A stretch of 47,553 nt of DNA from a virus (taxonomy: Duplodnaviria > Caudoviricetes): the IMG/VR virus record IMGVR_UViG_3300020042_006843, positions 1-47,553 of that record; one strand, written 5' to 3'. The position numbers were made by a program, and so were the translations under genes. This document shows, piece after piece, positions 1-47,553 of this stretch. The notes below the pieces were generated by a model that did not search any database, was not told the origin of the DNA, and was given only the letters and a program-made list of their open reading frames with translations. Numbering within the stretch: the first letter of the stretch is position 1; each line of letters begins with the position of its first letter.

Positions 1-22
1 AAGATATAAAACATGTGCTCAT
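1..22 (-). CDS. 5' end of major tail protein, copy A (truncated by window edge)
   Basis: Reverse complement ATG AGC ACA TGT TTT ATA TCT = MSTCFIS. This matches the copy B start MSTCFIN (33074) at the same position downstream of the capsid gene. Confidence 0.8.
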
Positions 23-35
23 AATATATGTGTTT

Positions 36-102
36 GGGGGACTACCCCCTTTATTTTTTTATTTGTTTATTTTTTTTAAAAGGGGGATTTTACTCCCCCC
101 TT
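36..102 (-). terminator. Two GC hairpins between capsid and major tail gene (terminator/attenuator-like)
   Basis: GGGGG-acta-CCCCC at 36-49 and GGGGGA-ttttac-TCCCCC at 82-99 next to an A run. Copy B has one equivalent hairpin at 33111-33129. Confidence 0.55.
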
Positions 103-117
103 AATATTTTTCTTAGA

Positions 118-1089
118 TTATGCTAAGTTGTTAGTTGCGAAGTATACAGTTGAACCGAATAACGCGATTTGAGCACCATAGTTATAGTTAGCTCTTAAAC
201 GTAATTCATCAAAGTCCTTTGAATACCATATTACTAGCTTTTCGTGATCTCCGAGCAAATCAAATCCCACCACAAAATATTCTGCTGGTCCGATAACAAC
301 TTTGTTAGAAGCGTTCAATCCGATTGTAGGGATTACCTTAACGTTAGTGTTAGGGTGAACAGCTTCCATGTTACCAGTGATTTCAGAAGAACCAATGTAG
401 TTACTGAAGAAGTTTGCTTTAGTTAATGCTTGTACATAAACACGGAAGTTAGCGTATGACATAAACACACGTAAATCTTCTCTTGACATTGCGTCATCAG
501 ATAATGCGTTAATTAAGTTATCTACTTCTGTGATAGGGTTACCTGCAGTACCGTATGCTACTGAGTTAGAGAATGTAGTACCACTTGAGTTACCTACACC
601 TGTAGTTCCTGTTACGATTAATGATTTGAAACCATTGAAACAATCACCACCACCTGTAGTTGCTTGCCATAATTTTTGCTCAATTCTTTGTTGAATTTGT
701 TTTACCTTAAGGTCAGCAATTTGTTGTTCAAATGGAACAGTTTCTTGAGTTTGACCTGGTTGCATTAACATTGACTGATAAGTGTCAAATAAGTCTTGGT
801 AACATAATGCTTCATTATATTTCTCAGGACAAGTTGTAATGTTTCTTTGTGTAAAAGTGGTAGTTGTACCTGTTGGAGGAGACCATCCACACTCACCTGC
901 TTGGAACACAACGGTTGAATTTAATAGGTTCAATGCTTGTGTACCTTTGATACCTAATCTTACGTTAACATATTTTGGAGTTGTTGCACCAATAAGTGCT
1001 TTTGATAATAATTCTCCACCAACTTGGTCTACATATGAACCAATAGTTGCTACGTCATACGAAAAGTTTTCTTTCTTTAAAAATTTCAT
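118..1089 (-). CDS. Major capsid protein, copy A
   Basis: 323 aa, downstream of protease and scaffold, upstream of the major tail gene. Clear paralog of 33149-34132 (shared KAL.GATT, FQAG.CGW, GGDCFNG.K, YSKDFD). Confidence 0.8.
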   Translation of the reverse strand: MKFLKKENFSYDVATIGSYVDQVGGELLSKALIGATTPKYVNVRLGIKGTQALNLLNSTVVFQAGECGWSPPTGTTTTFTQRNITTCPEKYNEALCYQDLFDTYQSMLMQPGQTQETVPFEQQIADLKVKQIQQRIEQKLWQATTGGGDCFNGFKSLIVTGTTGVGNSSGTTFSNSVAYGTAGNPITEVDNLINALSDDAMSREDLRVFMSYANFRVYVQALTKANFFSNYIGSSEITGNMEAVHPNTNVKVIPTIGLNASNKVVIGPAEYFVVGFDLLGDHEKLVIWYSKDFDELRLRANYNYGAQIALFGSTVYFATNNLA

Positions 1090-1114
1090 AATTTTATTTT
1101 TTTTAATTTTTTAT

Positions 1115-1864
1115 TTATTTTTTTCTCATTGATGCAATTGCCGCTAATCTATCGGTCATTACATCATCTGAGCTATTTTGTTTATTAAAATCTGTTTTAC
1201 CATCAGATATTTTCTTACCTGCTGGTTCTTTTTTGAATGAGTTAAATTCAGCTTTCACTTCTTCAACCTTATCTTCCATGTCTTTCATTTTCTGAGATAC
1301 TTTTTCCATCATATCTTTTAATAATGAAACAATTTCTTTGATAGGATCTTCTTCAACTTCTTCTTCTTTAACTACTTCTTCTTCCATTTCTTTGTCTTTG
1401 TAGCCCGCTTCAACTTTTTCTTCAATCTTAGCGATAACACCTTCCTTGGTTTCTACCTTCATACCACCTTCTAATTCGTGTACACCATCTGGTGCAGGTA
1501 TTTCACCTTCTTCGGTTACTACAACAACTTTAGCGCCTTCAACTACTGAGTCACCCTCAACTTTAATTTGGGTTCCGTCTACTAATTTAGCGTCAACAAA
1601 AATTTGTTTTACTGATTTGATTTCACCGTCTTTAACTTGTATTTCAAAGTTTTCAACTAATCTATACTTACCAGTTTCTAATGCAACTCTTTCAAACTCG
1701 TCGTTTAACTTGGTGATTTTACTACCAACTTCAAGTTTAAGGGTTTCAAAAATGGTATTGTCTTCAGTTTTAAATGAAGCCATTATAGGTTCGTCAGACA
1801 TAAAACCAAATTGTACCATCAATTTTTTGATTTCTTGGATTGCTGTTTTTGGATTTTTTGACAT
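1115..1864 (-). CDS. Capsid scaffold protein, copy A
   Basis: Acidic, APDG.HEL motif, C-terminal coiled coil, between protease and capsid. Paralog of 34160-34894. Confidence 0.7.
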   Translation of the reverse strand: MSKNPKTAIQEIKKLMVQFGFMSDEPIMASFKTEDNTIFETLKLEVGSKITKLNDEFERVALETGKYRLVENFEIQVKDGEIKSVKQIFVDAKLVDGTQIKVEGDSVVEGAKVVVVTEEGEIPAPDGVHELEGGMKVETKEGVIAKIEEKVEAGYKDKEMEEEVVKEEEVEEDPIKEIVSLLKDMMEKVSQKMKDMEDKVEEVKAEFNSFKKEPAGKKISDGKTDFNKQNSSDDVMTDRLAAIASMRKK

Positions 1865-1901
1865 AATCTTAAATTGTTTTTTTTTATTCTTCTTATACTA
1901 T

Positions 1902-1909
1902 TAAATATA
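1902..1909 (-). promoter_or_regulatory. TATATTTA motif (putative late promoter -7 element)
   Basis: 37 nt upstream of the scaffold ATG; same motif and spacing in copy B (34932-34939). Confidence 0.55.
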
Positions 1910-1933
1910 AATGTTTATATATATTCCCAAATC

Positions 1934-3664
1934 TTATTTTATGGTCTTCAATATCTTAACTACTTCCTGTAAGAACATGTGTTCTCTTGCAAAATCTGCT
2001 ATCTCTTCAAAGAATCCTGAGACACTAAAACCTTTTAATTCTCCATTCTTTACCTTCTTCCAAACTTCGTCATTACGTACCTTCATTGATACAAACCAAG
2101 TACCTACAGGTAAATTACCATAACCATACTTGTTTGATTTATCTTCCTTATCTTCCTTAATCCAACTCTCAACCACATACACATCTGATACCGCCTTACC
2201 GTTATGGTTCTCATCATTGTTATCAATGTACTTGTTTCTCATGTACTTCTCCGCAATCATCTTGATTGTGTTAGCACTAAAATAAACATAGTATGGATTA
2301 CCGAGTAAATCTTTACGGAATATCTTAAGGTCAGGTATCATTGCTGGTCCCACAACCATTTTCTTTTCGTCATCGGTTTGGAACTTTTGTTTTGACATGT
2401 TGGTTTTGTTAATCTCTTCCAATTTGTTGGATGCCCATTCAATACCTGCTGTACCTCCCCAAGCGTCCCACATAAGACCACCACAACCCTCTGAGTATGG
2501 TACGTCTTTATTCTGTGCATGTCTTGCAAATGATGCCATTCTTGATATGGTTTCTTCTGAGATTGGTTCACCCTTAGCAAGTTGATTTGCTCTAGCTTTA
2601 CCAACAGGTGTTCCACAAGAACCCCATCCGTTTTTCTCAACCCAATCTAATGCTCTCTGAGCTGCGGTTCTTACACTTTCAGGATAATCTGTATAACTTT
2701 CAAATGCAATAGATTTTGATACGGTATCACCTGATACTTGGTCAACATAAGATGGTAAACCACCTACGTCATAACCCATATCATATTCAGGTGCGTTGTC
2801 ATAACCACACTTATGACAAACATAAGCATCTTCACCACCATCTTCCATATCCCAACTATGTCCACATTTTTTACAAACTATAACTGTTACAGATAATTCA
2901 TCTGCGTGATATAGATATACACTATCTTCTGTATGTACCGCACCTGTCATTAATCTACCACTAGCATCTTTATGTGTTGGTCCTTCGTATAATTTACCGT
3001 CTTCTGTATAATGTGGTATACCTACTGCGAATGATGCTTTACCTGGCACTCTTGTATCAGGTTGAGGTAATCCCATAATATCATAACTTTCAGCACCATC
3101 TATTCTCCCTTTTGTAATTGACGCTTTATTAACTATTGTTGCATCACGTCTATACTCTATTTTTTTCCATTCATGACGACAATTATATGATCCTCTCCAT
3201 ACCATGGCGGAACTTCCTAAATCGTTTGTAATACGTTCTAAATCCTCAACACGATATACCAAGTTCTTATTTAATAAGTCCTTACAAAATTCTCTTGTTG
3301 TTTCTTTAATCGGAGCACCTGATGCTTGAGGATTTAATACATATTTGTATCTAATTAATCTTTCCTCTGTATCTTCAAAAGAAGGTGCGTTTGGTGATGA
3401 AGTAATAAAATCTTCTTTTACATGTTCCCAACCATCATTGAATAAATCTTCTTCAGGATGACCTTTCTCAATAATCATGGATGAAAACTTTATGTCTTCA
3501 CCGTCAGGAATGTTGAAACATTCTTCAGTTGCTGAGTGTTTATGTTTGTTAAACGCAACCCAATTTACTTCAATTGCAGGTTCATCGACTAAAGATATAC
3601 TATCAATTCCTGATATATCATCATCTTCGTCAATCCTTAATTCATATACTTTTTCTTTGCTCAT
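1934..3664 (-). CDS. Prohead protease (XkdF/Peptidase_S78-like) with inserted passenger modules, copy A
   Basis: C-terminal VVGPAMIPD...ENH...VESW...PVGTWFVSMKV...ELKGFSVSG and N-terminal ISLVDEPAIE. Internal modules include C..NCRH, a Zn ribbon and GWGSCGT. Confidence 0.8.
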   Translation of the reverse strand: MSKEKVYELRIDEDDDISGIDSISLVDEPAIEVNWVAFNKHKHSATEECFNIPDGEDIKFSSMIIEKGHPEEDLFNDGWEHVKEDFITSSPNAPSFEDTEERLIRYKYVLNPQASGAPIKETTREFCKDLLNKNLVYRVEDLERITNDLGSSAMVWRGSYNCRHEWKKIEYRRDATIVNKASITKGRIDGAESYDIMGLPQPDTRVPGKASFAVGIPHYTEDGKLYEGPTHKDASGRLMTGAVHTEDSVYLYHADELSVTVIVCKKCGHSWDMEDGGEDAYVCHKCGYDNAPEYDMGYDVGGLPSYVDQVSGDTVSKSIAFESYTDYPESVRTAAQRALDWVEKNGWGSCGTPVGKARANQLAKGEPISEETISRMASFARHAQNKDVPYSEGCGGLMWDAWGGTAGIEWASNKLEEINKTNMSKQKFQTDDEKKMVVGPAMIPDLKIFRKDLLGNPYYVYFSANTIKMIAEKYMRNKYIDNNDENHNGKAVSDVYVVESWIKEDKEDKSNKYGYGNLPVGTWFVSMKVRNDEVWKKVKNGELKGFSVSGFFEEIADFAREHMFLQEVVKILKTIK

Positions 3665-3669
3665 ATTAT

Positions 3670-3677
3670 TAAATATA
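3670..3677 (-). promoter_or_regulatory. TATATTTA motif 5 nt before protease ATG
   Basis: Recurrent motif with fixed spacing (also 9369, 40640). Confidence 0.55.
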
Positions 3678-3681
3678 AATT

Positions 3682-6399
3682 TTACAGAGTTGATAAGTCC
3701 TTTAGACGGGCCTGTTTTTCACTCTCCGATGTTAGTTCGTTTGAAACGACATATGTTTTCATAATCATAGGTGATTGTTCTTGTGCTGGTTGTGATACCG
3801 CAGCTGCGTCAGGTCTTACTCCCGCTGTTGCTCCAGATGAGAATGATGTTCCACCACCCATTTGATTCATCATACTTAACATTGGTGCAAACATGGTTAC
3901 CGCACCTCTTGTCATTATTGCTTCACCCACCTCCGCTTCAATCAATGTTCCTCCTTGAGCATGTCTTCTTCCACCTATCATTCCACCCTTCTCATAGTTT
4001 CTACCCAAGTTTGGTGCAGACGCACCACCTGCTGAACCACCACCTCCGCCTGTTGAACTTTGATATTGTTGTGCTTTAATTGCATCAATTTGTTTTTTAC
4101 CAAATATTAAAGCTGCAGCTGCAGCAATACCACCTAAATATGGTCCAACAACAGGTATTACCGCTAACGAAGAAAAGGCCGATATTGCTGATTGCAACAT
4201 ACCAATTGTGGCTTGTGCAATCTGTGTCTTTTTGTTTTTCTCAAAATACTTTTCCTTAATCTTATCTTCCTCTTCCTTATTACCTTTAACTGCATCAAGT
4301 TCATTTTGCATTGCAAGTTGATTGGCTTGTGAAGCCATACCAACAATATTATTGATACTTGATAATATTTTACCACCAAATTCAAGATAATCATTTAATT
4401 GTAATTCACTAATCGCCTTAGTATCCTCAGTTGCTTTATCTTTTAGTGCTTTAATATCATCTTGTAATTTCTGTTCAATTGCAAGTATTGCTGCAGCATC
4501 ACCTTCTTTCTTTGCTTTCTCATCAGCAGCAGCTTGAGTTAATGCGTCTATATCTTTCTTTAAAGCAACAGCAATAATTTGTCTCTTATTATCGTAATAA
4601 CTTTCTGTTCCTCTAACTAAACTTTCACCTTTGATTTGAAGTAATTTTAATTCATCATCATAAGCCTTTTGTTTTTTATCAAATTCTTCTTTATTTTCTT
4701 GTGTAGTAATTCCAGCAAGTTGAATACCCAATGCCTTTTTACCATCTATTAAAGCTTGGTCATATTCTTTTTGTGTAATCAATCCGTCATCTAATGCTTT
4801 CTTTAATGCCGCCTTATCCTTTTCAAATTGTTTCTCTTTTTCTTTTCTTTCTTTTTCAAATTGATTACTAATAGAATTAACTTCAAATTCACCAATCTTT
4901 TCTAATACACCTTTTCTTTCTTGTTGTCTTTGTTCTTCCTTCTTCGCCTCATTTTTGTTAAACTCGTCTTTTGCTTCTAACTTTTTTTGGTCAGCAATCT
5001 TTTGAACATTTAATATTGCATCTTGTCTTTTCTTTTCATACTTAGGACTAATGTCCATGGCAGCAATCTCTCTCTTTTCCGCATCCGCAGCGTTTTGAAT
5101 TTCTTGTTGTTTTCTTTCTAACTCACCTGTTGTTTGAACCGCAGTTAAGTCGTCTTGTAATTTCTTTGCCTTTTCTAAAAGTTGAGTATCTTGTTTTTCT
5201 TTTGGTGTTCCACCTGTTTTTGGAGGTTCAGCAAGACCTTTCTTTAATGTCTTATCATTTTCAATTGCTTGATTAATAAGTTTATCACCTTCTGCCGCAA
5301 AGTCGTTTGCGGTTTTTAAATTTTTACCAATATTCTTTGAATAGGTCTCAATATTCGCAACTGCAAATCCAGCAATATTACCACCTGTTTTTATATAGTT
5401 TAAAGCTTGATCCCAAAAATCTGGTTCCAAACCTTCACCACTAATATTCTTAGCGGCAGCTTCAGCAGATTTTGCGTAGAATATTTGAGCTTGTGCTCTT
5501 AATTTAATTGATTGTATAACTGCGCCAGTGTTTGCTGTCATCAACGCTTCCGCTTGTTCTAACGAACCAGCATAACCAACAGTTTTTCCTAACTTATCAT
5601 TATATTCTTTTAGAGCGTCCTTTTTAGAAACAGTACCTTTTCTTGCTCCTTCTAATGATGCTTTAACCTCAAGTAACTTAACATTAAAATCTGTTACATC
5701 TTTGGTTACTTGTTTCTGTGCATCATCATACGCTCTTGTTTTATCTGTAGCACCTGTAAGTGCATCACTAATATCATCCCAATAAGCGATAAGTGCAGCA
5801 AGACCCGCAAGTAAAAGTCCGATACCAATTGCTTTAAGTGCTGTACCTAAACCAATTGTTGCAACTTCTGCAGCCTCAGTTGCTACTGTTTGTCCTTGTG
5901 TTGCAACGGTTTGAGCTTTAGTTGATGTTGTTGCAGCAGTTTCAGCAACCGCTAACTCAGCGGTCGCAATTGTCTCAGCTTCAGTAATTGCAGTATTTGC
6001 CGCTTGAACTTCATTTAGTCCAATTAAGTTCTTTCCAATATCAGCAACATCACTAGCGGATTCACCTAATTGAAAACTTAAATCTTTTAAACTAAAAGAT
6101 GTGAAAGTCTTTAATAAATCTATACTACCCGATAGTTGTCCAAAAAACTCACCAACAGGACCAGGTAATAAAGATAGTGATGTAAATAAGTCTTTCGACT
6201 TAGCACTTGTTTTTGACAAACCATCCTGAACATCACCTAATCTATTTGATAATAATTTAAACGCTTCAGGGTCAGATGTTTTACGTAACTCCGCAGTTAA
6301 CGCTTTCGCCTGTTGTTGAAGGTTTAGTGTTTTATCAATTGCAACATCAATGGCTTTACCGTTAACGTCATATATAATCTCAATTTTCTTTGCTGCCAT
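3682..6399 (-). CDS. Tape measure protein, copy A
   Basis: 905 aa, Ala/Lys/Glu helical with hydrophobic segments. The C-terminus (YEKGG...GEAIMTRGAVTMF...TYVVS...QARLKDLSTL) is shared with 37068-39668. Confidence 0.85.
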   Translation of the reverse strand: MAAKKIEIIYDVNGKAIDVAIDKTLNLQQQAKALTAELRKTSDPEAFKLLSNRLGDVQDGLSKTSAKSKDLFTSLSLLPGPVGEFFGQLSGSIDLLKTFTSFSLKDLSFQLGESASDVADIGKNLIGLNEVQAANTAITEAETIATAELAVAETAATTSTKAQTVATQGQTVATEAAEVATIGLGTALKAIGIGLLLAGLAALIAYWDDISDALTGATDKTRAYDDAQKQVTKDVTDFNVKLLEVKASLEGARKGTVSKKDALKEYNDKLGKTVGYAGSLEQAEALMTANTGAVIQSIKLRAQAQIFYAKSAEAAAKNISGEGLEPDFWDQALNYIKTGGNIAGFAVANIETYSKNIGKNLKTANDFAAEGDKLINQAIENDKTLKKGLAEPPKTGGTPKEKQDTQLLEKAKKLQDDLTAVQTTGELERKQQEIQNAADAEKREIAAMDISPKYEKKRQDAILNVQKIADQKKLEAKDEFNKNEAKKEEQRQQERKGVLEKIGEFEVNSISNQFEKERKEKEKQFEKDKAALKKALDDGLITQKEYDQALIDGKKALGIQLAGITTQENKEEFDKKQKAYDDELKLLQIKGESLVRGTESYYDNKRQIIAVALKKDIDALTQAAADEKAKKEGDAAAILAIEQKLQDDIKALKDKATEDTKAISELQLNDYLEFGGKILSSINNIVGMASQANQLAMQNELDAVKGNKEEEDKIKEKYFEKNKKTQIAQATIGMLQSAISAFSSLAVIPVVGPYLGGIAAAAALIFGKKQIDAIKAQQYQSSTGGGGGSAGGASAPNLGRNYEKGGMIGGRRHAQGGTLIEAEVGEAIMTRGAVTMFAPMLSMMNQMGGGTSFSSGATAGVRPDAAAVSQPAQEQSPMIMKTYVVSNELTSESEKQARLKDLSTL

Positions 6400-6400
6400 G

Positions 6401-6601
6401 TTACTCTAAACTTTCTTTTAATTGATGTTGAAATGATTTCTCCAACAAAGTTTTATCACCTACTAAATAATGAATTGAACTAAAATCTAATTCTGTTTTT
6501 GAAAACATGTATTTTGATATTTCTAATTCTTCATTAAAATTGGTTAACGATATGTTTTCCATATCTAATTTTTGGTCGTCTAAATAAATTTCTATATTCA
6601 T
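6401..6601 (-). CDS. Hypothetical 66-aa protein (copy A only)
   Basis: Fills the gap between neighbours in operon orientation; no counterpart seen in copy B. Confidence 0.55.
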   Translation of the reverse strand: MNIEIYLDDQKLDMENISLTNFNEELEISKYMFSKTELDFSSIHYLVGDKTLLEKSFQHQLKESLE

Positions 6602-6611
6602 GTTCTATATT

Positions 6612-7604
6612 TTATACACACGCAGTACTACATAATGAGTACATGCTTAATGTTATTGTATTTCCTATATCACCACTAACTACTGTATAGACAGAGGTGA
6701 ATAAACTTGTATTACCATCAGCACAAGCTGCGTCGGTTAGTTGTACCCTATTAGATATAGTATATGCGTTGGCCTTTATATTAGGATTTGAACATCCGTT
6801 AGCTATCACTTCACAGTTCACAGTATCACCCACAGCTAATGTATAAGTTCCACTTGATGTACTAAATCTATTTTCAATCACATTACCATTTACATATAGA
6901 TACATTTCACCATCGGTGTTAGTCTCAGTATAGTTCCAATTCAGTGTTACTCCACCTGTTGATGTTGGACTTGGAGTTGGTGATGATGTCGGTGTTGGTG
7001 TCAACGTACCTGTTACTGTAGGAGTTGGTGTGAACGTTCCTGTTATTGTAGGTGTAGGAGTTGGTGTACCTGTCATCGTTGGTGTTGGTCCTAAACCTGA
7101 AGCTGTTGGACTTGGAGATGGAGTTGGTGTTGGTCCTGATGTAACTGATGTGGTTACACATATTGGAAAAACCGCCCTATGACCAATCATCCTAACTTCA
7201 AAGTAATATGTTCCTGCAACAAATGATGTCACACCAATCATGGATGGTGTAACCGTAAATGTCTCACTAAAACTATTAGTTGTTGAACCCGTTGAAATAC
7301 TTTTGTTATATACACATGACCATGGTCTATAATAATTCTGTGTTCTACCCATCATGTGGACAGAGAATATATTAACAGTTCCTGATTGATTTATATAGGG
7401 TTCTGCACCATTCAAACTCCATGTACCTGACATGTTTATTGTAATACTACTTGATGATGTCAATACACCTGTAAAATTAGTTACTGTACCTGATACAGAA
7501 TAATTGTTTATGTCATGAACTATCTCCAAATCATATTCGGATACCGTATTGTTTGGGTAAACAAAATTCTGACTTAATAACTCACTTATATATTTTCTAC
7601 TCAT
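6612..7604 (-). CDS. Virion appendage protein: conserved anchor, Pro/Thr linker, variable beta domain (copy A)
   Basis: N-terminal ~155 aa homologous to 39726-40634 (MSRKYIS, HDIN, SVHM, YY.PW.C, GTYY.E.R.IG); TPTPTP tract; unrelated C-terminus. Confidence 0.65.
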   Translation of the reverse strand: MSRKYISELLSQNFVYPNNTVSEYDLEIVHDINNYSVSGTVTNFTGVLTSSSSITINMSGTWSLNGAEPYINQSGTVNIFSVHMMGRTQNYYRPWSCVYNKSISTGSTTNSFSETFTVTPSMIGVTSFVAGTYYFEVRMIGHRAVFPICVTTSVTSGPTPTPSPSPTASGLGPTPTMTGTPTPTPTITGTFTPTPTVTGTLTPTPTSSPTPSPTSTGGVTLNWNYTETNTDGEMYLYVNGNVIENRFSTSSGTYTLAVGDTVNCEVIANGCSNPNIKANAYTISNRVQLTDAACADGNTSLFTSVYTVVSGDIGNTITLSMYSLCSTACV

Positions 7605-7611
7605 AATTTAA

Positions 7612-9363
7612 TTAACATTTTAAAAGTACTCCTGTATTATCTAAAATTCCATATCCACCATTTGTTAAAGTTGTTGCAGGATTATTATATCCAATAGTAG
7701 TTGTTGAGAATGGTGAATAAGTAAACGCAATAACATAGTTACCGTTTATATCTACAGCAATTTTATTAACTGCCCAAGTTCTAACGGTTAAATCAAGAGG
7801 TGTTGTATCCCATGTTCCACCATAAGTACCATCTATTGCACCAATTGAATCAACTTTAAATACACCTCTAACTTGATTACCATTATAAACAGGTCTTGGT
7901 AATAAATTATTTACTGAAGAACCAATTACAAATGAACCGCCCGAAGTTTCAATTGGTTTACAAATTGAACTTACTGGCTCATTTACTAAACCAAGTCCAA
8001 CATTAAATGTTGAATAAACAGTTCCGTCATTGTTTAACATTAAGATATTTTCACCACCACCTATGGTAGCTTTAAAAGTACCTCGTATTAATATCTTACT
8101 ACTTGAAGTATATAATATTGCAGATATATCATAAATTGTATAAAATGCCGCAACAGTAGTACTTCCTGAGAATGTAGTATCAACAGAACCCGTAGATGTA
8201 AATCTTATTATATTAGTATATGAACTACCTGAATAACCAGTGTAAGAACCATACATTATTATATTATTATCAGGTTGAATAGTTACACCATTTAACCATG
8301 GATAAGGACCACCTGAGAAACCTGTACTAGTTCCACCACTATAGAATGATGTATCAATTGAACCAGTAGATGTTAATCTAACATACTTTTCATATATTGA
8401 ACTATTAATTGTTGTGAATGAACCTACAGCAATAATTTTACCATCACTTTGTACGTCAAAATCTTGTATAGTATTTAAACCTGATGTAACTCCAAAAATG
8501 TTTTGTGTAAATCCTGCATCAACACTTCCATCTGAATTATATTGTCTTAAATTTTTTCCTGATGTTGATCTACCCGCAATAATAATTTTTCCACTTGGTA
8601 ATTCTTTAACTCTTCTAATTGATAACCAATCATTTGATGTATCAAGTGTAAAACCACCATTAATTGTTAATCCCGTATTATTATTTAATTTAACATAACT
8701 TCCAATACTTGTTCCTCCATAAGTCATTCCACTTGAGTTTCCACCAAAAATATAACTATAATCATTTGTCTGTATTACATCTAATAATCCTGAATAACTT
8801 GAACCACTAAAGATTGTTGTTAAATTATAACATCCAATTGACGGTAAAGTAGGAGTAGGGGTAGGTGTACCTGTTACCGTTGGTGTAGGTGTTGCTGTAC
8901 CTGTCATCGTTGGAGATGGGGTTGGTGATGGTGCAGGTGTTGCGGTAAATGTAGGAGTTGGTACAGGTGTTGCACTTGGTGTTGCCGTTGGATAAGGTGT
9001 TGGAGGTACCAAAGTATTCTCCAATCTATATTCAAAATCATAAGCAGAATTTACTGTTGTTGCAGTAAATGTGTATGAAATTGTCGGAACACTAATTGCT
9101 ATAGTTGTATCTACGATACCATTATTACCACCTTCATCATCTGTTGTATAATCTCTTCTTACTAAATTTAGATATGAAATAAGAAGTGGACTTACATCCG
9201 TAAGTTCTATTCTTACCACATCACCCACATAAAGAGGACATGAATATAAATTAAATGATGTTAAATAAAGTCTTTTATTTATTACATTATTAACGTATAT
9301 ATCAATAAAATCTCCTGAAGTTTGGTCAAAGTTTGTTGTAGAAACTAATAGTTGTCCTCTCAT
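7612..9363 (-). CDS. Tail-associated protein with Pro/Thr linker and delta-60-like beta-propeller repeats
   Basis: Repeats QSDGKIIAVGSF, DGSVDAGF, TGSIDTSF, TGSVDTTF. Start moved from 9390 to ATG 9363, which removes the overlap with the upstream gene and places TATATTTA 5 nt upstream. Confidence 0.65.
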   Translation of the reverse strand: MRGQLLVSTTNFDQTSGDFIDIYVNNVINKRLYLTSFNLYSCPLYVGDVVRIELTDVSPLLISYLNLVRRDYTTDDEGGNNGIVDTTIAISVPTISYTFTATTVNSAYDFEYRLENTLVPPTPYPTATPSATPVPTPTFTATPAPSPTPSPTMTGTATPTPTVTGTPTPTPTLPSIGCYNLTTIFSGSSYSGLLDVIQTNDYSYIFGGNSSGMTYGGTSIGSYVKLNNNTGLTINGGFTLDTSNDWLSIRRVKELPSGKIIIAGRSTSGKNLRQYNSDGSVDAGFTQNIFGVTSGLNTIQDFDVQSDGKIIAVGSFTTINSSIYEKYVRLTSTGSIDTSFYSGGTSTGFSGGPYPWLNGVTIQPDNNIIMYGSYTGYSGSSYTNIIRFTSTGSVDTTFSGSTTVAAFYTIYDISAILYTSSSKILIRGTFKATIGGGENILMLNNDGTVYSTFNVGLGLVNEPVSSICKPIETSGGSFVIGSSVNNLLPRPVYNGNQVRGVFKVDSIGAIDGTYGGTWDTTPLDLTVRTWAVNKIAVDINGNYVIAFTYSPFSTTTIGYNNPATTLTNGGYGILDNTGVLLKC

Positions 9364-9368
9364 AATAT

Positions 9369-9376
9369 TAAATATA
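9369..9376 (-). promoter_or_regulatory. TATATTTA motif 5 nt before ATG 9363
   Basis: Same motif and spacing as 3670 and 40640. Confidence 0.55.
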
Positions 9377-9380
9377 AAAT

Positions 9381-12300: not shown

Positions 12301-12938
12301 AAATAACTCTCAAAGAACGCATTGTTCTTCTTAGAGCCAGGTAATGATAATCCAACTGAATAGTCTGAGTTTCTTTTACCAACGTCTTGTAACTCTGCGA
12401 AAGATTTATTTAATTTAATTGGTATATCTGTATATAAATCTAAAGTATCATAACTTAATACTTCACTTGATAATGTTTCATTATCAGGTACTAAATAAAA
12501 ATTAAATGTACTTCCTGTTGGTATACTGGATGCTGCTACAGCGATAACTTCATCATTTTGTACCTTGAAACTACCTACTAAATCAGTTTGACCAAATTCT
12601 TCAAATCCACCAAATCCGATTTTTTTAAAATTGCTATCAGCAACTCTTATTCCAAATTGATATTGTGTATAAACATTTTCAAATGTTGGTGGTGCAATCA
12701 TGTCTACATTATAATAAAATGTACCTGTACCACCTGTAACTAACATGTTAAAAAACCAAGAACTACGTGATGCTCCACTACTTGTTGTTACACCTGTAAA
12801 TGGTGAAGTTTCAGTACCACTACCTGAGTATGTTACGTTTCCACTGCCTATTCTACTTAATGATGTTGTACCTGTAATTTCAATACCCGAAGGTATGTTC
12901 GTCTGTACTCTGAGTACGGTTTGTTGTTGTTGAGCCAT
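9381..12938 (-). CDS. Large tail-tip/baseplate hub protein, copy A
   Basis: 1185 aa; [37 protein letters not shown] motifs shared with 40655-45322; lies in the tail gene cluster. Confidence 0.7.
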   Translation of the reverse strand: MAQQQQTVLRVQTNIPSGIEITGTTSLSRIGSGNVTYSGSGTETSPFTGVTTSSGASRSSWFFNMLVTGGTGTFYYNVDMIAPPTFENVYTQYQFGIRVADSNFKKIGFGGFEEFGQTDLVGSFKVQNDEVIAVAASSIPTGSTFNFYLVPDNETLSSEVLSYDTLDLYTDIPIKLNKSFAELQDVGKRNSDYSVGLSLPGSKKNNAFFESYFNVDTNSLYFDVTRRVNIDILMDDQKYFSGYMRLNKVSVLNSKVEYDVTLYSIVADLYGQMGNNLLKDLDYNDAHWHFNHYFNMYNVASTWSYNSLQTPYIVPSLWMYPVVHNGYLYTGNTVNQSGSTVDSQTRLYISSNQIGSYPSYSAYTAANTTTADYRINSPLNPILDNQLKPGLNMYALIQLMFNNYGYTIKSEFFETPWFKLLYMYGFYSFDGTKFGYRTPVAQTLTLEGVDVLLVETFEDTSSFPCGTQYIRTDRTYTIYVVKKGTGIPALCSQQINVALDFEFYPCYGGGSIPSTQVVSIPPNTTGTTYSWVSNQYVDCGSGCPFQLEYTVNYGYNASVSNVGLSTSSLAYQPQPANTNVVFQDNIDYVDFSLVIDTNIKQIDILSSLAKKFNLVIIPDPEVPNQMIIESYDYYIGTGVIYDWTDKLSFDKGFTVQPALNFVESELILTDQEDGDEANKTYKDRNKLIYGENRVYNSTDFKSQTKKIDTIFSPEVIRKWDNNIGIPLGINYAGQSKPENENGSEVIRWQYTGLKQKPRLIFNNGNLSPFLGTVGQSYNFGNSGTFRVNNMFFRLQPSTGINPAPASSDGRTYAFYTLVNPVVSHTMPYGNPDENKINNDSICILFNSQEPDDIGLGIPTFNAYTEQDAYKLFYSNRINNLYDKNTRFLQGQFNLKLSDVKNLRPNDIIKIQEQYFYLNKLEGFDLTNPELTTVELVQTNVTPNTYPTRYFKYVYCNEQNDIVYKFRTFFNPEDNVYGDTVGNENLNTIRRTYYYWSLYYDYMVGALGGNVSGITSSYTNTSDETWAYTMTEISETEYNDPNYVPWFQDDNNSYFIDRISDGPTDVDNSVAQGIWVFSNSGTTNNGFFNVAVDCATFTGYCATNNVVLEPAPGSSPASIYHSGITINITDTGWLKYDTATGTVYKQFTSLGNQDIPDCADCSTIRYAYPFADLASWTVVDCGSSCP

Positions 12939-12941
12939 AAA

Positions 12942-33129: not shown

Positions 33130-33148
33130 TTGTTTTTATAATTTGATA

Positions 33149-34132: not shown

Positions 34133-34159
34133 AATCTTATTTTTTTGTTTAATTTTTTT

Positions 34160-34894: not shown

Positions 34895-34976
34895 AATTTA
34901 TTATTTTGTTTTTGTTTATTTCCTCTAATTCTAAATATAAATTTGTATATATTAGACCAGATTATTTATTTTTATT

Positions 34977-36902: not shown

Positions 36903-36934
36903 GTATTAAAATATAAATGTTTTATTTATAAATA

Positions 36935-37066
36935 TCAACGACCTTGTCCTCTATAGGATTTAGGTTTTTGTGATTTAGGTCCATAAGACTTTTTACCTGT
37001 AGGTTGTGATTTCTTTTTTCCGAAGGTTACTTTATAAGAACCTCCACTTGATTTTCCTTTAGCCAT
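36935..37066 (-). CDS. 43-aa basic peptide ending YRGQGR (copy B only)
   Basis: MAKGKSSGGSYKVTFGKKKSQPTGKKSYGPKSQKPKSYRGQGR; starts 1 nt after the tape measure stop; missed by the ORF track. Confidence 0.7.
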   Translation of the reverse strand: MAKGKSSGGSYKVTFGKKKSQPTGKKSYGPKSQKPKSYRGQGR

Positions 37067-37067
37067 A

Positions 37068-39668: not shown

Positions 39669-39725
39669 AATCTATATATGTATATATTTTAGTTTATAAT
39701 GGATTGTTATTATAAGTATTATATT

Positions 39726-40634
39726 TTATGGTATTGTACCACTATCAACTGTTAATGCCACTTGTTGTGTTGTTGGTGCATCAATTACATATGTGAATGT
39801 TGTAGCACTTCCTGATGAAGAAGGACATGATGCTGATGAACCATTTCCATTCATGACACATAAAATACTAGTTCCAAATTCTATACTATCATTAGTTGTT
39901 AATCCTGTTATGGTATAGATAAATGAACATGATCCTGGTAGTGTTGTTGCGGTAGCACCTGGTACGTTTATATTACCACCACCATTAACACTATAGAATA
40001 ATGTCAAAGTAGATGGTGTTCCATCTATATCTCTACCATATATTTGTAAATTCTTTGCACTACTTGTTCCTGTTGGCGTTGGACTTGGTGTAGGAGCTGG
40101 TGTAGCTGTCGGACCTGTGGTCGTAGGAGTTGGTGTTGGTGTAGCCGGTGAAGTTATAACAACGTTAACACTTATACAAACAGGTATTACTACCTTTTTT
40201 CCTATAAATCTAAATTCCAAATAATATGTTCCTGATGTAAATCCTGTACTTGAAAGACCCATGTTAGTTGCTGAAATATTAAATGATGTTGAGGTACCTG
40301 AATAAATTTGATTACCTGTTACAGCGTTCCTATCGACATATATACACCTCCATGGTTTATAATAATCTTGACCTGGCGCTAACATGTGTACAGAAAACAC
40401 ATGTAAAAATCCTTGTTCATCAATGAATTTTTCAGCGTTATTATAATTCATAGAATAACTAGAATTAAATATCATATTACTCGTTGTTGCGGTATATGAA
40501 TTAATTGCTGCCGTACACCCTGTCATGTAATTATCATTAATATCATGTATAATTTCAACATCATATTGTGATCTATCATTATTTGGATAAATGAAATTTG
40601 TGTCTTCTCTTTGACTTATATATTTTCTGCTCAT
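39726..40634 (-). CDS. Virion appendage protein: anchor, Pro/Thr linker, variable domain (copy B)
   Basis: Paralog of 6612-7604 with a different C-terminal domain; TATATTTA 5 nt upstream (40640-40647). Confidence 0.65.
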   Translation of the reverse strand: MSRKYISQREDTNFIYPNNDRSQYDVEIIHDINDNYMTGCTAAINSYTATTSNMIFNSSYSMNYNNAEKFIDEQGFLHVFSVHMLAPGQDYYKPWRCIYVDRNAVTGNQIYSGTSTSFNISATNMGLSSTGFTSGTYYLEFRFIGKKVVIPVCISVNVVITSPATPTPTPTTTGPTATPAPTPSPTPTGTSSAKNLQIYGRDIDGTPSTLTLFYSVNGGGNINVPGATATTLPGSCSFIYTITGLTTNDSIEFGTSILCVMNGNGSSASCPSSSGSATTFTYVIDAPTTQQVALTVDSGTIP

Positions 40635-40654
40635 ATTATTAAATATAGTTTTTT

Positions 40655-43600
40655 TTAAGGTATTGCAATATAAAGTTCTACTTTATAAACATCCCCATAA
40701 TTAATTGGTGATGGTGTAGGTGCATCATAAGACCTATCAATGCCACCAGGACAGATTGCCATCGGTGGAGGTGATGATAGTGGAAATGAATCGTATGTGT
40801 GAAATAATACATTATTTTTATAAAATTTCATTGACCAATTCCATCCATTCCATGCGGTATTGTTATCACATACTATAAAACGCGCTGATACAGCATTTTG
40901 ACCGATAAAGGACCCTAATCCATTTTGTGTACCTAAATCCTCAATGAAATTTTTAGTATCACTATAGAAGTCAGGAAATTCTATTCTATTAGGACGAGGT
41001 AAATTCGCACCTATTTGTAAAGATCTAAAGTTTAAATCCGCCGCACCTGTCCCTGTACCAATAACAACATATTGATATGTAGGTAAAACACCGACTGTTG
41101 CAGTTGGAGTAGGTGCTGGTGTAGACGTAGGTATTACCGTTGCCGTTGGTGCAACTGTTGGTAATGGTGTTGCTGTTGGTGATGGTGGTAATGTAGGTAA
41201 TGGAGTTGGTATAAACGTTGTCGCTGTTGGTAGAGGCGTAGCTGTTGGACCAGTACCTGTTGGAGTCGGAGTTGGTGTACCAGTTGTAGTAGGACTCGGA
41301 GTTGGTGTAGCCGTTCCTGTTGAACTTGGTGTAGGTGTTGGACCAGTACCTGTTGGAGTCGGAGTCGGAGTTGATGTTGCACTCATTGTCGGAGTAGGGC
41401 TTGGTGTAGCCGTCATCGTCGGAGTTGGTGTAGGAGGACATGTTGGTAATGGTACATTACTTGTTTCAACATAAACCAAATACTCAAACTTATAAGCGTC
41501 AGGTCTACAATCAATTGTAATGTCCTGATTAAAACAATTCATTGAACTTGATAGGTTACTTCTACAATAAATTTGAGTTTCGTAAATTCCATTATTACCA
41601 TCAACATCATCTGTTGTGTAATCTCTACGTATAATGTTAACATATGTATAACGTGTTGAAGTGAATGGTTGAACACATGTTTCTAATGTTTGACCTGTAA
41701 AGATATTCCTGATGAATAAATTCTCACAGTCTGCATATTGAAACTCTACATTTTCTTCTTCGCTACTATTATTAATTCTAAATTGAACATATGTTTGTGG
41801 TGTATTGGCTGTTGGGTCATATTCATTATATGTTAATATTAATGAACCACCAGGTCCTGCATTTGGTTGAGGGTAAGGGTCATATGGTGCTGGTAAGTCA
41901 GCAACTTTACATTCTTCACATGTATCATATGGACCACCAAAAATTAAAATATTATTAACATTATATGTGTCAGTTGTTTCTTCAATTGCTTCCCAACACT
42001 GAGTTGTGTCAAACTGTTCATCAAACCATTTTGATAATCTATAGAATTTACCGATTGCAACCTCAATATAAGCGTACATCTCAAATACTTGTATATCAGT
42101 TGGGTCATCACAATTTTTAAATCTAAATCTTGGTATTGGTGGTTGTGTTGGTGCAGCGGTTAATGTCACATTATTTGTTGTACATAATCCTGTAAATGTT
42201 GGACAATTAACAGCAGCATTAAAGAATATCTTATTGTAAGGTGAATTATTTGATTGAACAAATAAATTACCTGCGGTTTGATTTATATCACCTTCTGGAC
42301 CATAATCTATTTGGTCAACAAAGTATCTATTGTTTACGTCGTATTGATGAGGTATTTTAAAATAATTAGCCCAAACATCTTCGGCTACTTCCGAAATATT
42401 ATAAGCCCATCTTTGAAGAGTACCAGGATTTACAAATGAAGCGGTAAAACCACTTGCACTTCCACCTAAAGCACCAATCATGTAGTCATAGAAAATACTC
42501 CAATAGAAATAAGTTCTTCTAATTCCTGTTAATTTTTCACCGTTGTATAAATTACCTGTTAGATTATCTTCACCATTATAATAAGTTTTGAATTTATATA
42601 CATCATTACTACCACAATACTGATAGAAGAAATATCTTTCAGGATATTCTTTTGGTGCTACAGTTGTTTGAACAAGTTCTACTTTGGTTAATTCTTGATT
42701 TGTTAAATTAAACCCATCAAGTTTATTCATGTAGAAATATTGTTCCTGTATTTTAATAATATCATTTGGTTTTAAGTTCTTAACATCGGATAATTTTAAA
42801 TCAAAATTACCATTTAAGAATCTTGTGTTCTTATCGTATATATTATCAATTCTTGTTGAATAGAATGTACTATATGCATCATTCTTTGTGTAAGCTGAGA
42901 ATGTGGATATACCATCACCCAAGTTAGCCATCTCCTCTGAATTAAATAAAATTGATAAACTATCGTTAGTGATTTTATTTTCATCAGGATTACCAATTGG
43001 TAGCGTGTGACTCACCATGGGACACAAAAATGGACCGTAAGCTATCGACTGAAGGTTTACACCATTTGAAGGAGAAAGTCTAAAGAAGAAGGTATTAACG
43101 TTACTTGTGGTATATACTTCATTAATTGAATCCAAGAAAGGTGAGAAATTACCCAAGTTAAACATCAATTTTGGTTTAGATTTTAATCCTTTGTATAAAC
43201 TAACAACTGTTTCATTATCACCAACCTTTTCTGTTTGTGATGATTGTGCGTAGTTTACCCCTAATGGAAGTTTAATTCTTGAATCCCATTTACGAATAAT
43301 CTCAGGTGAGAATATGGTGTCAATTTTTTTCTCTTGTGACTTGAAGGCGGTAGAACCATAATAGTTCTTCTGTCCGTATATTCTATTATTTCTATCTTTA
43401 AATTGTTTATTACCATCATCACCATCCTCTTGGTCTGTTAACAATATCTCACTTTCAATATAGTTAATTGCTGGCTCAACAGTAAATCCTTTATCAAAGG
43501 ACATCTTATCTGTCCAATCAATAATATTACCTGTACCAATATAAAAATCATATGGTTCAACAATAATTTCAAATGGGTCGTTAGGATTGGGAACAAATAC

Positions 43601-45322
43601 CAAGTTAAATTTCTTTGCAAGAGATGATAGGAAATCAATTTGTTTAATCTTATCATCCATGACAGTACTAAAATTCACATATTCACCTTCTTCAAAAGCA
43701 ACCTCTGTGTTTGGTGTTCTTGGTTGGTATCTTAATTGTTGTCCTGAGATGGTTACATTACTTGTAGTTTTTCTATAATTTCTTCCTGCTGAGAATTGAA
43801 ATGATACACCATATGTTCCACCTGTAATAGTGAAATCATTATAAAAATTTGTACCAAACAAATTTGACCTTGTATTAAATGTAACTTTAATATCTTGATT
43901 ACAAACACATGGAGTACCAGTACCTTTCTTAACAACGTAAGCTTTGATTGTTCTATTTGCTTCTAATTTTGGTAGAACGTCTACGTTATCAATTGTTAGT
44001 GTTTCCGCCTTATTGAACTTGAATGAGAATTTAGTTGCTTGTGAACTAAAATACCCATACATGTACAATAATTTAAACCATGCTGAATTTAGGAATTGTG
44101 ATTTAATTCTATATCCGTATGAGTTAAATAATAATTGAGTTAATCCCCAAATGTTAAGTGCTGGTTTTAATTGGTTATCTAATATTGGATTTACAGGTGA
44201 GTTGATAAAATAATTCTTACCACCACTACTATAGAAGTTTGCAACACTTGAAAATGTACCAACGTTTGTTGATGTAAATAATCTTGTTGAACCACTTGTA
44301 GCACCACTAACATCGACTACCGCTCTACTTTGACTATCTCCTGTATAATTGTAACCATTATGTACAACAGGGTACATCCAAAGAGATGGTACTTCATATT
44401 GTGATTGAAGACCATTCTGTGACCATGTCGAAGCTATGTTCCACATGTTAAAGTAGTGATTGAAGTGATAATCGGTATCATCATAATTCAAATCTTTCAT
44501 TACATTATTTCCAATCTTTGCAAATAAATCCGACACATTTGAAAATAACGTAATGTCATATTCTACCTTACTATTTAAAACTGAAACCTTATTAAGTTTC
44601 ATGTAACCTGTGAAATAAGCTTCATCATCGATTAATACCGAACATGGAACCCTTTTGGTTACGTCGAAGTATAACGTTGAACTATCAACATTATAGAAGT
44701 TTTCAAAGAATCTATTGTTCTTTTTTGAACCAGGTAAACTTAATCCGATTGAATAATCAGCATTCTTTTTACCAATATCTTGTAGTTCCGCAAATGACTT
44801 ATTAATTTTAATTGGAACATCTCCGTATAAATCTAAAAAGTCATATTGGTTAACTGTGTAATTGTTTGTTTGGTCTTGTGGAACCATGTAAAAATTCAAC
44901 GATGTTCCTGTTATATTAAATGTAAACGCGTTAAATTGTACCGTATCACCATCATTTAGTAATACTGTTCCGTCAATGACTCTTTGTCCATACTCTTCAA
45001 ATCCACTAATATTAGTTTGTGAATCATCAGGGTATGTGATATTCATGTCTACATAATAACGATCGTATGCTGTGCCTGTACCTGTAAAACCTGTGGTTCC
45101 ACTAATTGAATAGTAGAATAAACTTGTTCCTCCTGTGTTGGTAAGTGTTACATTCCATGTGGCTCCTGATGTGATTCCTGTGTATGGACTAACCTCAGTA
45201 CCACTACCACCAAATGATGTACCTCCGATAGTTACAACTGATAATGTAGTTTCACCAGTTACGGTAAGACTTGAAGGTATATTTGTTTGTACTCTTAATA
45301 CAGTTTGTTGTTTTGTTGACAT
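40655..45322 (-). CDS. Large tail-tip protein, copy B (fusion of two copy A genes)
   Basis: N-terminal ~1060 aa match 9381-12938. The segment [13 protein letters not shown]...AY.FEY plus PT tract matches the N-terminus of 7612-9363. Confidence 0.7.
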
Positions 45323-45325
45323 AAA

Positions 45326-46906
45326 TTAGAAACCTTTTGATACAAAGAAACTATCCGCTCTCTTGAATGTTATTCTGTATTTGTTTAATTTTTTGTGTTT
45401 TTTTGTTATTGTATCTACCTCTGTTGATACCACTTGTAAAGGTCTTAAGTCTTTATAAATTTTATCTTGTCTGTCCATCGGTGATACAAAATCAGGTCTC
45501 ATCTCATATACTTGAGGTGACATGAATAATTGTTGCAACCATTCTCCTGTTTCAACATTGATGTAATCAGATTCTACCACAATTTCTTGGGTAACATCCG
45601 TATCAAATGTTTTAACTGTTCTGGCGTAATCTCTGTCAGGACTAGACAAATTGGTAGCATAATATCTACTATCATATGTCTGTCTTGTTATTTTTTTACT
45701 GTCTTGTCTAAACGCTGTGAATGTAAAATAATCAAATCCACCACGCATGTTTAAGAAACCAACTCTGAAATCTTCAGGACCACAATTCTGATTTACATAG
45801 AAATAGAATCTTTCTGAACATGGTCCGACTGGTCCTATTACTTGTCTATTGGTATTTGGTGATGGGAAAGAATAGTATAATTGAACTGTGTAATAAGCTA
45901 CTTGATTAAAATCCACATCAGCATATATATTACTAATATCAACAGGTCCACATGGTAAACCAAATACCTGTAAAGTATCTGTATAACCTGTTGGTGATTG
46001 GTATATAGTTCCTGTTTTATTTATTTCTAAATTAAATTGTGAAATTAAACTATTATTTTCATCATAAAATTCAAATCTTGCATAGTCTGCCTCTATCACT
46101 TGTCTATCTCCTGTTTGTCCGTTTAACAAATATAATTCATAATTTTCGTTGGATTGTATAGAAAGGATACGAGGAGAATCTGTTAAGAATCTTGATGTTT
46201 CACTTTCTTCAGGTACCATAGGAAAATCCAAAAGGAATTGTCCCATAGGTGATAGTCTTCTATTAACATCAACTGTGTTAATTGTTAATCCTGTTCCTAC
46301 TACCGTTCCAATCTCTTGGTCAAAATTCCTCAATAGATACTTCTCATCCAATTGGAAAGCACCACCCACATAGTTAAAATATTCCCCTGTGTTGGTAAAT
46401 CCTGATGGAACGAAAGAAGTATCACCATAACATGTTGGAACGTCTGTATAGTGGTCAAAATCGTTTGTAGGTGCGTCTGTATATTCTGTTATTACACTTG
46501 AACCTACGGAGTATCTATATCCATATTTAAAGTTTGCTTTAATACTGTTTGGATATGGATTATTAATGTTGATTGTATCATTAGTTGCATCCCAATCATT
46601 TAACCAATAATATCCATAGTGTTGTGATTGGACATAGTTTGACAAGTAATCATATGGTCTAATGTTAAATCTGTACGTAAAGAACGCACCATACTGTGTT
46701 ACCGAATATGGTACAACAGACATTCTTCCTACCTTACTATCGTCAACATACATGTCAACATCAAGTTCCATGGATGATTGATAGGAGAAACCTTGCATCA
46801 CTACTTCGTATGTTGCACCTCTTTGATAAATCATGTCGGTACTTCTACGAATTTGAGTATTACTGTTTAATCCGTTTGCGTATTGTGATATATATTCAAA
46901 ACTCAT
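45326..46906 (-). CDS. Tail structural protein, copy B
   Basis: Paralog of 12942-14555. Confidence 0.65.
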   Translation of the reverse strand: MSFEYISQYANGLNSNTQIRRSTDMIYQRGATYEVVMQGFSYQSSMELDVDMYVDDSKVGRMSVVPYSVTQYGAFFTYRFNIRPYDYLSNYVQSQHYGYYWLNDWDATNDTININNPYPNSIKANFKYGYRYSVGSSVITEYTDAPTNDFDHYTDVPTCYGDTSFVPSGFTNTGEYFNYVGGAFQLDEKYLLRNFDQEIGTVVGTGLTINTVDVNRRLSPMGQFLLDFPMVPEESETSRFLTDSPRILSIQSNENYELYLLNGQTGDRQVIEADYARFEFYDENNSLISQFNLEINKTGTIYQSPTGYTDTLQVFGLPCGPVDISNIYADVDFNQVAYYTVQLYYSFPSPNTNRQVIGPVGPCSERFYFYVNQNCGPEDFRVGFLNMRGGFDYFTFTAFRQDSKKITRQTYDSRYYATNLSSPDRDYARTVKTFDTDVTQEIVVESDYINVETGEWLQQLFMSPQVYEMRPDFVSPMDRQDKIYKDLRPLQVVSTEVDTITKKHKKLNKYRITFKRADSFFVSKGF

Positions 46907-46908
46907 AT

Positions 46909-47391
46909 TTAAATTCCTTGAAATTTATTTATTAAATCCTCTACCGTCATGTCGACAAGTAGATTTTCTAAATCTTTATTTTTATATAATTCTTCAATTG
47001 CGTAGTCCATCCATCCAAAAGGAAGTGCTGGTATCCCTACGTTCTTGATATTTTTACTTATTATAATTGCCATGGTCTTTGTTGACATGGCCTTTCCATC
47101 TTTATCTTTCCAACTTAATCCTCTTGCTTTCACCCATTCTTCTAATGGTTTGATTGGAACATATTTTCCTGGATTTCTACCCTTGTTAACAGATTTACCA
47201 TAACTATTCATGAAAATAAAGATTCCGTCTTTCGATGGTATAGCTTCAATACTATCATACAAAGAACGACTAGCAACTTTATCACTCTCACCACCAACTG
47301 AATTTGGACCTATTCCAAATCTATATTGTGGTTCGTATAACGCCTTCTTAAAGGTATCTTGAACAATCTGTGCTATCTTTTCTAAGTCCAT
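46909..47391 (-). CDS. Putative neck/tail-completion protein, copy B
   Basis: VASRSLYDSI, KGRNPGK..PIKPLEEWVKARG; paralog of 14557-15096. Confidence 0.5.
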   Translation of the reverse strand: MDLEKIAQIVQDTFKKALYEPQYRFGIGPNSVGGESDKVASRSLYDSIEAIPSKDGIFIFMNSYGKSVNKGRNPGKYVPIKPLEEWVKARGLSWKDKDGKAMSTKTMAIIISKNIKNVGIPALPFGWMDYAIEELYKNKDLENLLVDMTVEDLINKFQGI

Positions 47392-47553
47392 GTTATGATG
47401 GGTTTATAATTAAGTAAGCAACTGTGTCTGCGTCTCCGTTATGTGAGGAACCTATTGTAAAAGTACCTGAACCTTTTGATGTAATTGAAACAGATGCGTG
47501 ATTAGTTAAGGTTTGTTTGGTTAAGAATATTAAACTATTTGTTGTAACCAAAC
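47383..47553. repeat. 171-bp exact direct repeat, second copy (= 15088-15258), running to the window end
   Basis: Identical sequence. Confidence 0.95.
47393..47553 (-). CDS. 3' end of the fibre gene (identical to 15098-15258), truncated
   Basis: Encodes ...LVTTNSLIFLTKQTLTNHASVSITSKGSGTFTIGSSHNGDADTVAYLIINPS*. Confidence 0.85.
   Translation of the reverse strand, partial: LVTTNSLIFLTKQTLTNHASVSITSKGSGTFTIGSSHNGDADTVAYLIINPS

What the first reader, a model, noticed from the sequence alone, without database searches (positions are those of the whole stretch)
1..47553. Two diverged head-and-tail gene blocks around one packaging/replication core
Seen: neck, two tail-tip genes, appendage, tape measure, protease, scaffold, capsid and (in copy A only the first codons of) the major tail gene occur twice, in the same order and strand (1-15096 and 32535-47391). 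They are far from identical; the capsid N-termini share roughly half their residues by eye. Terminases, portal, adaptor, chaperone, fibre, sigma-like factor and initiator are single copy in the window. Inference, three options: (a) a head-to-tail tandem of two related ~32-kb phage-like units on one molecule; (b) a population in which one core carries either of two interchangeable virion blocks; (c) an assembly chimera. Options (a) or (b) would be an unusual dual-virion or cassette-swap system.
Basis: partly seen in the sequence, partly recalled or inferred. Interest (0 to 1): 0.85.

Follow-up and report, generated by a model that had tools for sequence, protein, structure and literature searches.

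The report
Two phages stitched by assembly
The second set of head-and-tail genes is really in the sequence, but it most likely belongs to a different, related phage that assembly software joined onto an ordinary complete 32-kb phage genome through a short shared piece of the tail-fibre gene, so this is probably not a two-virion or cassette-swap system.

Summary
The duplication is confirmed: eight homologous virion genes occur twice (proteins 25-66% identical). The contig is a lasso. Its last 171 nt are an exact copy of 15088-15258 (fibre end plus neck start), so core + block B closes into a 32,295-bp circle, the size of 8 closed relatives (30.4-33.9 kb, one capsid gene each). Independent contigs link B to this core on both sides. 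Block A belongs to another lineage: 0 of 18 loci with an A gene at 85% or more carry a core gene at 85% or more, and A-type capsids travel with their own portal clade (70-75% to this portal). Three other contigs of the family have the same partial-relative-plus-full-circle form, joined at different places. Best reading (0.8): a likely assembly chimera of two co-occurring phages sharing a recently exchanged fibre tip. A real recombinant carrying more of B's core (0.12) or a physical co-integrate (0.06) cannot be excluded without the source reads, which I could not lay. The small real signal is fibre-tip exchange between distant relatives. The scan's earlier notes hold no look-alike.

The parts
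1..15087 (-). Block A: partial genome of a second phage (neck, two tip genes, extra beta-propeller gene, appendage, tape measure, protease, scaffold, capsid, first 7 codons of major tail gene); the tail of the lasso
   Evidence: lineage
118..1089 (-). Major capsid protein A, 57% to B; 91-96% to capsids of a separate clade with its own portal
7612..9390 (-). 592-aa DUF5122 beta-propeller protein with Pro-Thr linker, a separate gene only in block A
14557..15096 (-). Neck-position gene A (25% to B's)
15088..15258 (.). Repeat R, first copy: last ~53 codons and stop of the fibre gene, 1 nt, first 3 codons of the neck gene; the likely join
15098..17437 (-). Tail fibre, 779 aa, collagen-like repeats and C-terminal PF24146 domain (706-776); varies independently of its neighbours among relatives
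15259..32534 (-). Single-copy core: rest of fibre, 335-aa and 263-aa tail-position genes, large terminase (19314-20642), methyl/glycosyltransferase genes, HNH genes, portal (30873-32036)
32535..47382 (-). Block B: major tail gene, capsid, scaffold, protease, tape measure, appendage, two tip genes, neck; the native virion block of the core
33149..34132 (-). Major capsid protein B, predicted HK97 fold
47383..47553 (.). Repeat R, second copy, at the contig end; closes 15088-47382 into a 32,295-bp circle

Best explanation
The contig is a complete-length 32,295-bp phage circle (core plus block B) preceded by 15 kb of homologous but diverged virion genes (block A) that likely come from a second, co-occurring phage and were likely joined by the assembler through an identical 171-nt stretch at the fibre end. 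Shown: the lasso layout, the exact repeat, the links between core and B in independent contigs, and A's separate lineage. Inferred: the two phages recently exchanged (or both acquired) this fibre-tip segment; that created a shared node in the assembly graph; the path entered from A, crossed the node into B's genome, went once round and stopped on meeting the node again. Each phage would build a normal single virion from its own head, portal and tail genes; A's own core is missing from this contig.
For: Exact 171-nt end repeat, against a longest run of 32 nt elsewhere between A and B at 68% identity. Loop size fits 8 of 8 relatives closed by terminal repeats (30,396-33,886 bp, one capsid gene each, one of them split by the origin). 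Core-to-B link: L009 is colinear over 29433-40658 at 82-87% nt, and a contig of run X3 spans 31106-33307 with 77 differences and 4 gaps in 2,202 nt. B-to-core link round the circle: L120 carries B's neck and tips at 97% nt, another fibre allele, and the exact last 29 residues of P0052, a protein 324/333 identical to the core's 335-aa gene. A's lineage: 0 of 18 loci (16 contigs, of 268 loci held) with an A gene at 85% or more have a conserved core gene at 85% or more (range 47-75%). In trees of 57 distinct loci the window portal pairs with L009 (100/100) and capsid B pairs with L009 (97), while the 10 A-like capsids sit with another portal clade (82/90, not a starred node). Among 192 of 1,596 locus pairs with capsids 88% or more identical, portal identity never falls below 79%, while A's relatives are 70-73% to this portal (the 70-73% are tblastn identities, the pair values global alignments). 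Same form, different joins: G006 (817-nt exact end repeat at the fibre 3' end; loop 32,876), G004 (77-nt exact repeat inside the fibre; loop 33,388), G001 (near-identical block with exact runs of 98 and 110 nt beside the sigma-like gene; loop 32,242). In G001 the tail unit continues, in another contig that is 100% identical over 1,827 nt, into its own terminase. [quoted passage not shown]
Against: The source reads were not available: no run held half of the sampled words, so depth and spanning pairs at the join are untested, and A's own core from this sample was not found. A 171-nt repeat should often be resolved by read pairs (own knowledge). The family is truly mosaic across the fibre: 2 of 16 locus pairs with small-tip identity of 85% or more have the 335-aa gene under 70%, so real recombinants at this point exist. 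B's side rests on only 2 distinct close contigs plus run contigs. Three of four double contigs join at the fibre gene, which also fits a real recombination hotspot.
Confidence: 0.8

Rival explanations
1. A is a real recombinant phage that took over a longer stretch of B's genome (fibre and perhaps the packaging genes), so the A-R-core join is genuine for some kilobases. The contig is still a walk through two separate ~32-kb genomes. This is ordinary modular exchange, a weak form of the reader's option (b).
For: The end repeat only gives a lower bound on the shared stretch (inference). Mosaic pairs across the fibre exist (2 of 16). A is itself mosaic: its small tip is closest to L178/L187 (85-88%), whose necks are only 36-37% to A's. 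R is 91% identical in a third lineage, L209.
Against: None of 18 A-like loci carries B-type core genes. A's left end does not rejoin the core. For terminase, 0 of 11 pairs with close tips fall under 70%.
Confidence: 0.12
2. A physical co-integrate or mixed concatemer: one crossover at R between two co-infecting circles gives A-R-core-B-R-(A's core) on one molecule of about 64 kb.
For: The layout is exactly what one crossover predicts (sequence). The same form recurs in three more contigs.
Against: No closed double-unit genome among 24 family contigs of 30 kb or more: 21 are 30.2-34.3 kb and the 3 longer ones all hold a partial second unit. No integrase or recombinase among 40 proteins scanned and no host DNA. 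A molecule of twice unit length should not fit a head built for ~33 kb (own knowledge), so it would be transient and rare.
Confidence: 0.06
3. A programmed dual-virion or cassette-switch system in which one core deploys either block.
For: Only the gene layout. The join lies at a gene boundary conserved across the family.
Against: No recombinase hit, no long inverted repeats (longest arms 34 nt at 71%), only one shared boundary, joins differ between the four double contigs, and capsid and portal are co-inherited across the family.
Confidence: 0.02

Closest known systems
Chimeric virome contigs from co-existing viruses with shared regions (PMC5610896; PMC10914622; passages read)
   Same: Two distinct genomes on one contig, joined where they share identical sequence; contig ending on a repeated stretch.
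   Different: The papers' passages give rates (usually under 5% of contigs of 10 kb or more) and end overlaps of k length; the lasso form with a 171-nt overlap was not described in what I read. COBRA's supplementary simulations of shared regions were not seen and may bear on it.
Uncultured ~30-34-kb tailed phages in IMG/VR (G003, G005, G011-G025)
   Same: Homologous capsid in all; same virion, portal and terminase gene order where mapped (G003, G004, G001, G006); same unit size.
   Different: They carry one virion block. The window's circle is a further member, about 87-90% nt to L009/L149/L150.
Nonlabens phages P12024S/L (35.7 kb), best annotated match for the portal
   Same: Portal 28% identical over 82% of its length; similar genome size.
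   Different: Capsid A finds no match among 50,697 phage records; only a distant relative and a weak hint of a Bacteroidota host.
Invertible tail-fibre cassettes (Mu G segment, P1 C segment; features recalled, not from a call)
   Same: Variation centred on the fibre gene.
   Different: They need an invertase and inverted repeats and switch fibre tips, not whole head-tail blocks; neither element was found here.

Membership tests
Tailed dsDNA phage (Caudoviricetes) | HK97-fold major capsid protein | tested here: met
   Model of capsid B (pLDDT 74.6) matches phage capsids and encapsulins, best E 3.7e-10; A is 57% identical
Tailed dsDNA phage (Caudoviricetes) | Large terminase and portal | tested here: met
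   phrog_2 E 6e-43; portal phrog_33693 E 4e-30; Pfam portal hit 36.6 bits is under its 39.1 cut-off
Siphovirus morphotype | Tail tube and tape measure, no sheath | tested here: inconclusive
   Tube-like fold only at E 0.008 or weaker; tape measure PHROG hits E 4e-8 to 5e-4; no sheath hit among the families shown for 40 proteins
Complete single-unit genome (core + B) | Closes on a terminal repeat at family-typical length with one copy of each gene | tested here: met
   32,295 bp vs 30,396-33,886 bp in 8 closed relatives
Chimeric contig | Parts derive from two distinct genomes | tested here: met
   A and core + B track different lineages
Chimeric contig | Join lies in an identical shared block | tested here: met
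   171-nt exact repeat
Chimeric contig | Join not supported by spanning reads; unequal depth | not testable with these tools
   Source run not found; only contigs of other runs could be laid
Recombinase-driven cassette switch | Site-specific recombinase and paired recombination sites at both cassette ends | tested here: not met
   No recombinase hit in 40 proteins (three ORFs of 73-79 aa not scanned); no second shared boundary; no long inverted repeats
Tandem prophages | Integrase, attachment sites, host flanks | tested here: not met
   No integrase hit; the window is the whole contig; capsid alignment found no relative in genome contigs

The most novel reading that the evidence does not exclude
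The fibre gene is a live recombination hub between freshwater phages only ~68% identical, and the lasso contigs (this one, G006, G004) record real crossover molecules: hybrids that put one phage's whole head-and-tail block behind another's fibre and packaging genes, abundant enough to assemble.
Probability: 0.15. Interest if true: 0.55.

Novelty: not a real feature. Interest (0 to 1): 0.15.

Why it matters
As a dual-virion system it most likely does not exist. The practical value: over-long lasso contigs recur in this family (3 of 24 related contigs of 30 kb or more, all scored 100% complete), and can be spotted by an end that repeats an internal stretch one genome length away; cutting there recovers a normal complete genome. 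The small biological signal is that distant relatives share identical fibre-tip DNA, which points to recent exchange of the likely receptor-binding end. If source reads did support the join, it would be a direct view of whole-module exchange in a wild phage population.

Tried and rejected
Source reads: the one run search (query 10500-20400) gave no run with half the words (best 0.21); I laid 4 of 23 runs, all as contigs. In X3 and X4, B and most of the core were covered by 95-99% pieces while A was nearly uncovered, even at the laxer threshold (88% for 5500-25400, 92% for 27600-47553). The tool warns that lack of cover is not evidence, X3 also lacks 15460-16787 and 17452-19443, and the piece tables were cut, so I do not count this. 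X1 held thin pieces of both A and B and more of the fibre middle; not interpretable. Exact R pattern: 0 hits in viral contigs and 0 of 244 loci. B-neck query found nothing in viral contigs. Block A DNA and capsid A: no match in annotated phages. No PDB sequence match for the capsid. No prophage relative in genome contigs with two peptide patterns, so the host is not identified. The capsid IQ-TREE run timed out and was replaced by FastTree. Simple over-circularisation of one genome is rejected because A and B are only 68% alike. GC content does not separate the blocks. One search left out 13 loci of double-unit contigs. Paper searches listed nothing that, by title or abstract start, describes this phage family or a dual virion block; only two papers were opened, as passages.

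Full report
Observation. The window is one whole 47,553-bp virus record. Nearly all genes lie on the minus strand. Eight virion-block genes at 118-15096 have homologues in the same order at 33149-47391, 25-66% identical as proteins and 68% as DNA over 6,532 aligned bases. Base 21 backwards encodes the first seven residues of a major tail gene like the one at 32535-33074. The capsid model has the HK97 fold. Protease, portal, large terminase, fibre and tape measure are supported by PHROG/Pfam. The tail tube is only weakly supported, and the other names remain positional labels.

Layout. The last 171 bases are an exact copy of 15088-15258: the last ~53 codons of the fibre gene and the first three of the neck gene. 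Elsewhere A and B share at most 32 consecutive bases. The contig therefore reads A, R, core, B, R: a 32,295-bp loop with a 15,087-bp tail. A's free end does not re-enter the loop (longest shared prefix 10 nt).

The loop is a normal genome. Eight relatives closed by terminal repeats measure 30,396-33,886 bp and have one capsid gene each. Of 24 distinct family contigs of 30 kb or more returned by the viral scans, 21 are 30.2-34.3 kb; 17 of these were checked for capsid copy number and all have one. Both joints of the loop occur independently. L009 follows the window from 29433 to 40658 at 82-87% nt, with portal and capsid B both 91%. A contig of run X3 spans 31106-33307 and another runs from 45400 for 61 nt into R. 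L120 has B's neck and tips at 97% nt, preceded by a different fibre allele and the end of a gene whose last 29 residues are those of P0052, which is 324/333 identical to the core's 335-aa protein. P0052 and L120's tip protein P0042 are both listed with a longest contig of 17,229 bp. L149 and L150 match the core from the fibre's 5' half through the terminase at 87-90%.

Block A is another phage. Of 268 loci held (many redundant), 18 (16 contigs) carry an A gene at 85% or more. All 18 also show conserved core genes and none reaches 85% (47-75%). The four loci (2 contigs) with close B genes show 91-97% where core genes are covered. In trees of 57 distinct loci, the window portal and capsid B each pair with L009, while capsid A falls among ten capsids whose portals form a separate, moderately supported clade. 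Capsid and portal are co-inherited: 0 of 192 pairs with capsids 88% or more identical have portals under 79%. Across the fibre the linkage is looser: 2 of 16 close-tip pairs have a divergent 335-aa gene, 0 of 11 a terminase under 70%. This keeps a real recombinant open.

The same form recurs. G006 (45,155 bp) ends in an exact 817-nt copy of its fibre 3' end, with an 11.5-kb tail from a relative. G004 (36,396 bp) has a 77-nt exact repeat inside the fibre and a 3-kb tail. G001 (57,002 bp) holds a 32,242-bp unit and 24.8 kb of a relative, meeting in a near-identical block by the sigma-like gene; its end repeat is not exact, and a separate contig shows that the tail unit has its own terminase. Each is one full unit plus a partial relative, never two full units. 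The join sites differ, so there is no fixed swap site, although three of four lie in the fibre gene.

Mechanism. Fibre alleles move between lineages: an allele 80% like the window's sits beside a third neck type in L089, B-type L120 has another allele, and R is 91% identical in unrelated L209, with a 66-nt exact run. I infer that A and B recently shared this tip, which made a common node in the assembly graph, and that the path crossed from A into B's circle and stopped after one turn. [quoted passage not shown] PMC10914622 (passages) describes breaks and end overlaps at shared regions; its supplements were not seen. A single real crossover would give the same sequence, and only source reads separate the two. 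I could not obtain them.

Comparison and verdict. The loop is a further member of a widespread uncultured ~32-kb tailed-phage family; laid runs with long close pieces are from lake water, sediment and an unlabelled metagenome. The closest annotated match is the Nonlabens phage P12024 portal at 28%, and the host is not established. No recombinase, integrase, long inverted repeat or host flank was found. The scan's earlier notes held no look-alike. Verdict: likely assembly chimera 0.80, real recombinant within a graph walk 0.12, physical co-integrate 0.06, programmed switch 0.02. Interest 0.15.

Noticed in passing
G006 (L240-L242) 11463-12279 and 44339-45155; G004 (L144-L145) 1-77 and 33389-33465; G001 (L139-L141) 1-360 and 32243-32600: Three more records of this family hold a full unit plus part of a relative, all scored 100% complete; likely the same artefact.
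   Followed up: partly
window 15088-15258; L209 9357-9527; window 15256-15313 (L114); window 16794-16867 (L089): Fibre segments are shared as exact 58-74-nt runs with otherwise distant lineages, pointing to recent fibre exchange.
   Followed up: partly
window 17459-18466: The 335-aa gene before the fibre is an internal tandem duplication (17687-17971 vs 18179-18463, 66% nt); function not identified.
   Followed up: no
window 40655-45322 and 7612-9390: B's 1,555-aa tip protein has a C-terminal extension (residues ~1159-1289) that matches the same stretch of L007 as the start of A's separate 592-aa protein, suggesting a fusion or split; no direct A-B match.
   Followed up: no
window 20572-24169: Variable cargo just before the large terminase: glycosyltransferase-like and methyltransferase genes; exact 50-100-nt runs are shared with distant relatives.
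   Followed up: no
window 6945-7142, 8819-9003, 40053-40147, 41084-41442: Pro-Thr-rich linkers in the appendage, the 592-aa protein and the large tip protein.
   Followed up: no
protein P0003: An A-cluster capsid is listed on a 49,774-bp contig, possibly another double-unit record.
   Followed up: no
window 29058-29099 and 29403-29442: A ~42-nt direct repeat flanks a 73-aa ORF; contigs of runs X3 and X4 skip 29058-29402, so this gene is present or absent by strain.
   Followed up: no
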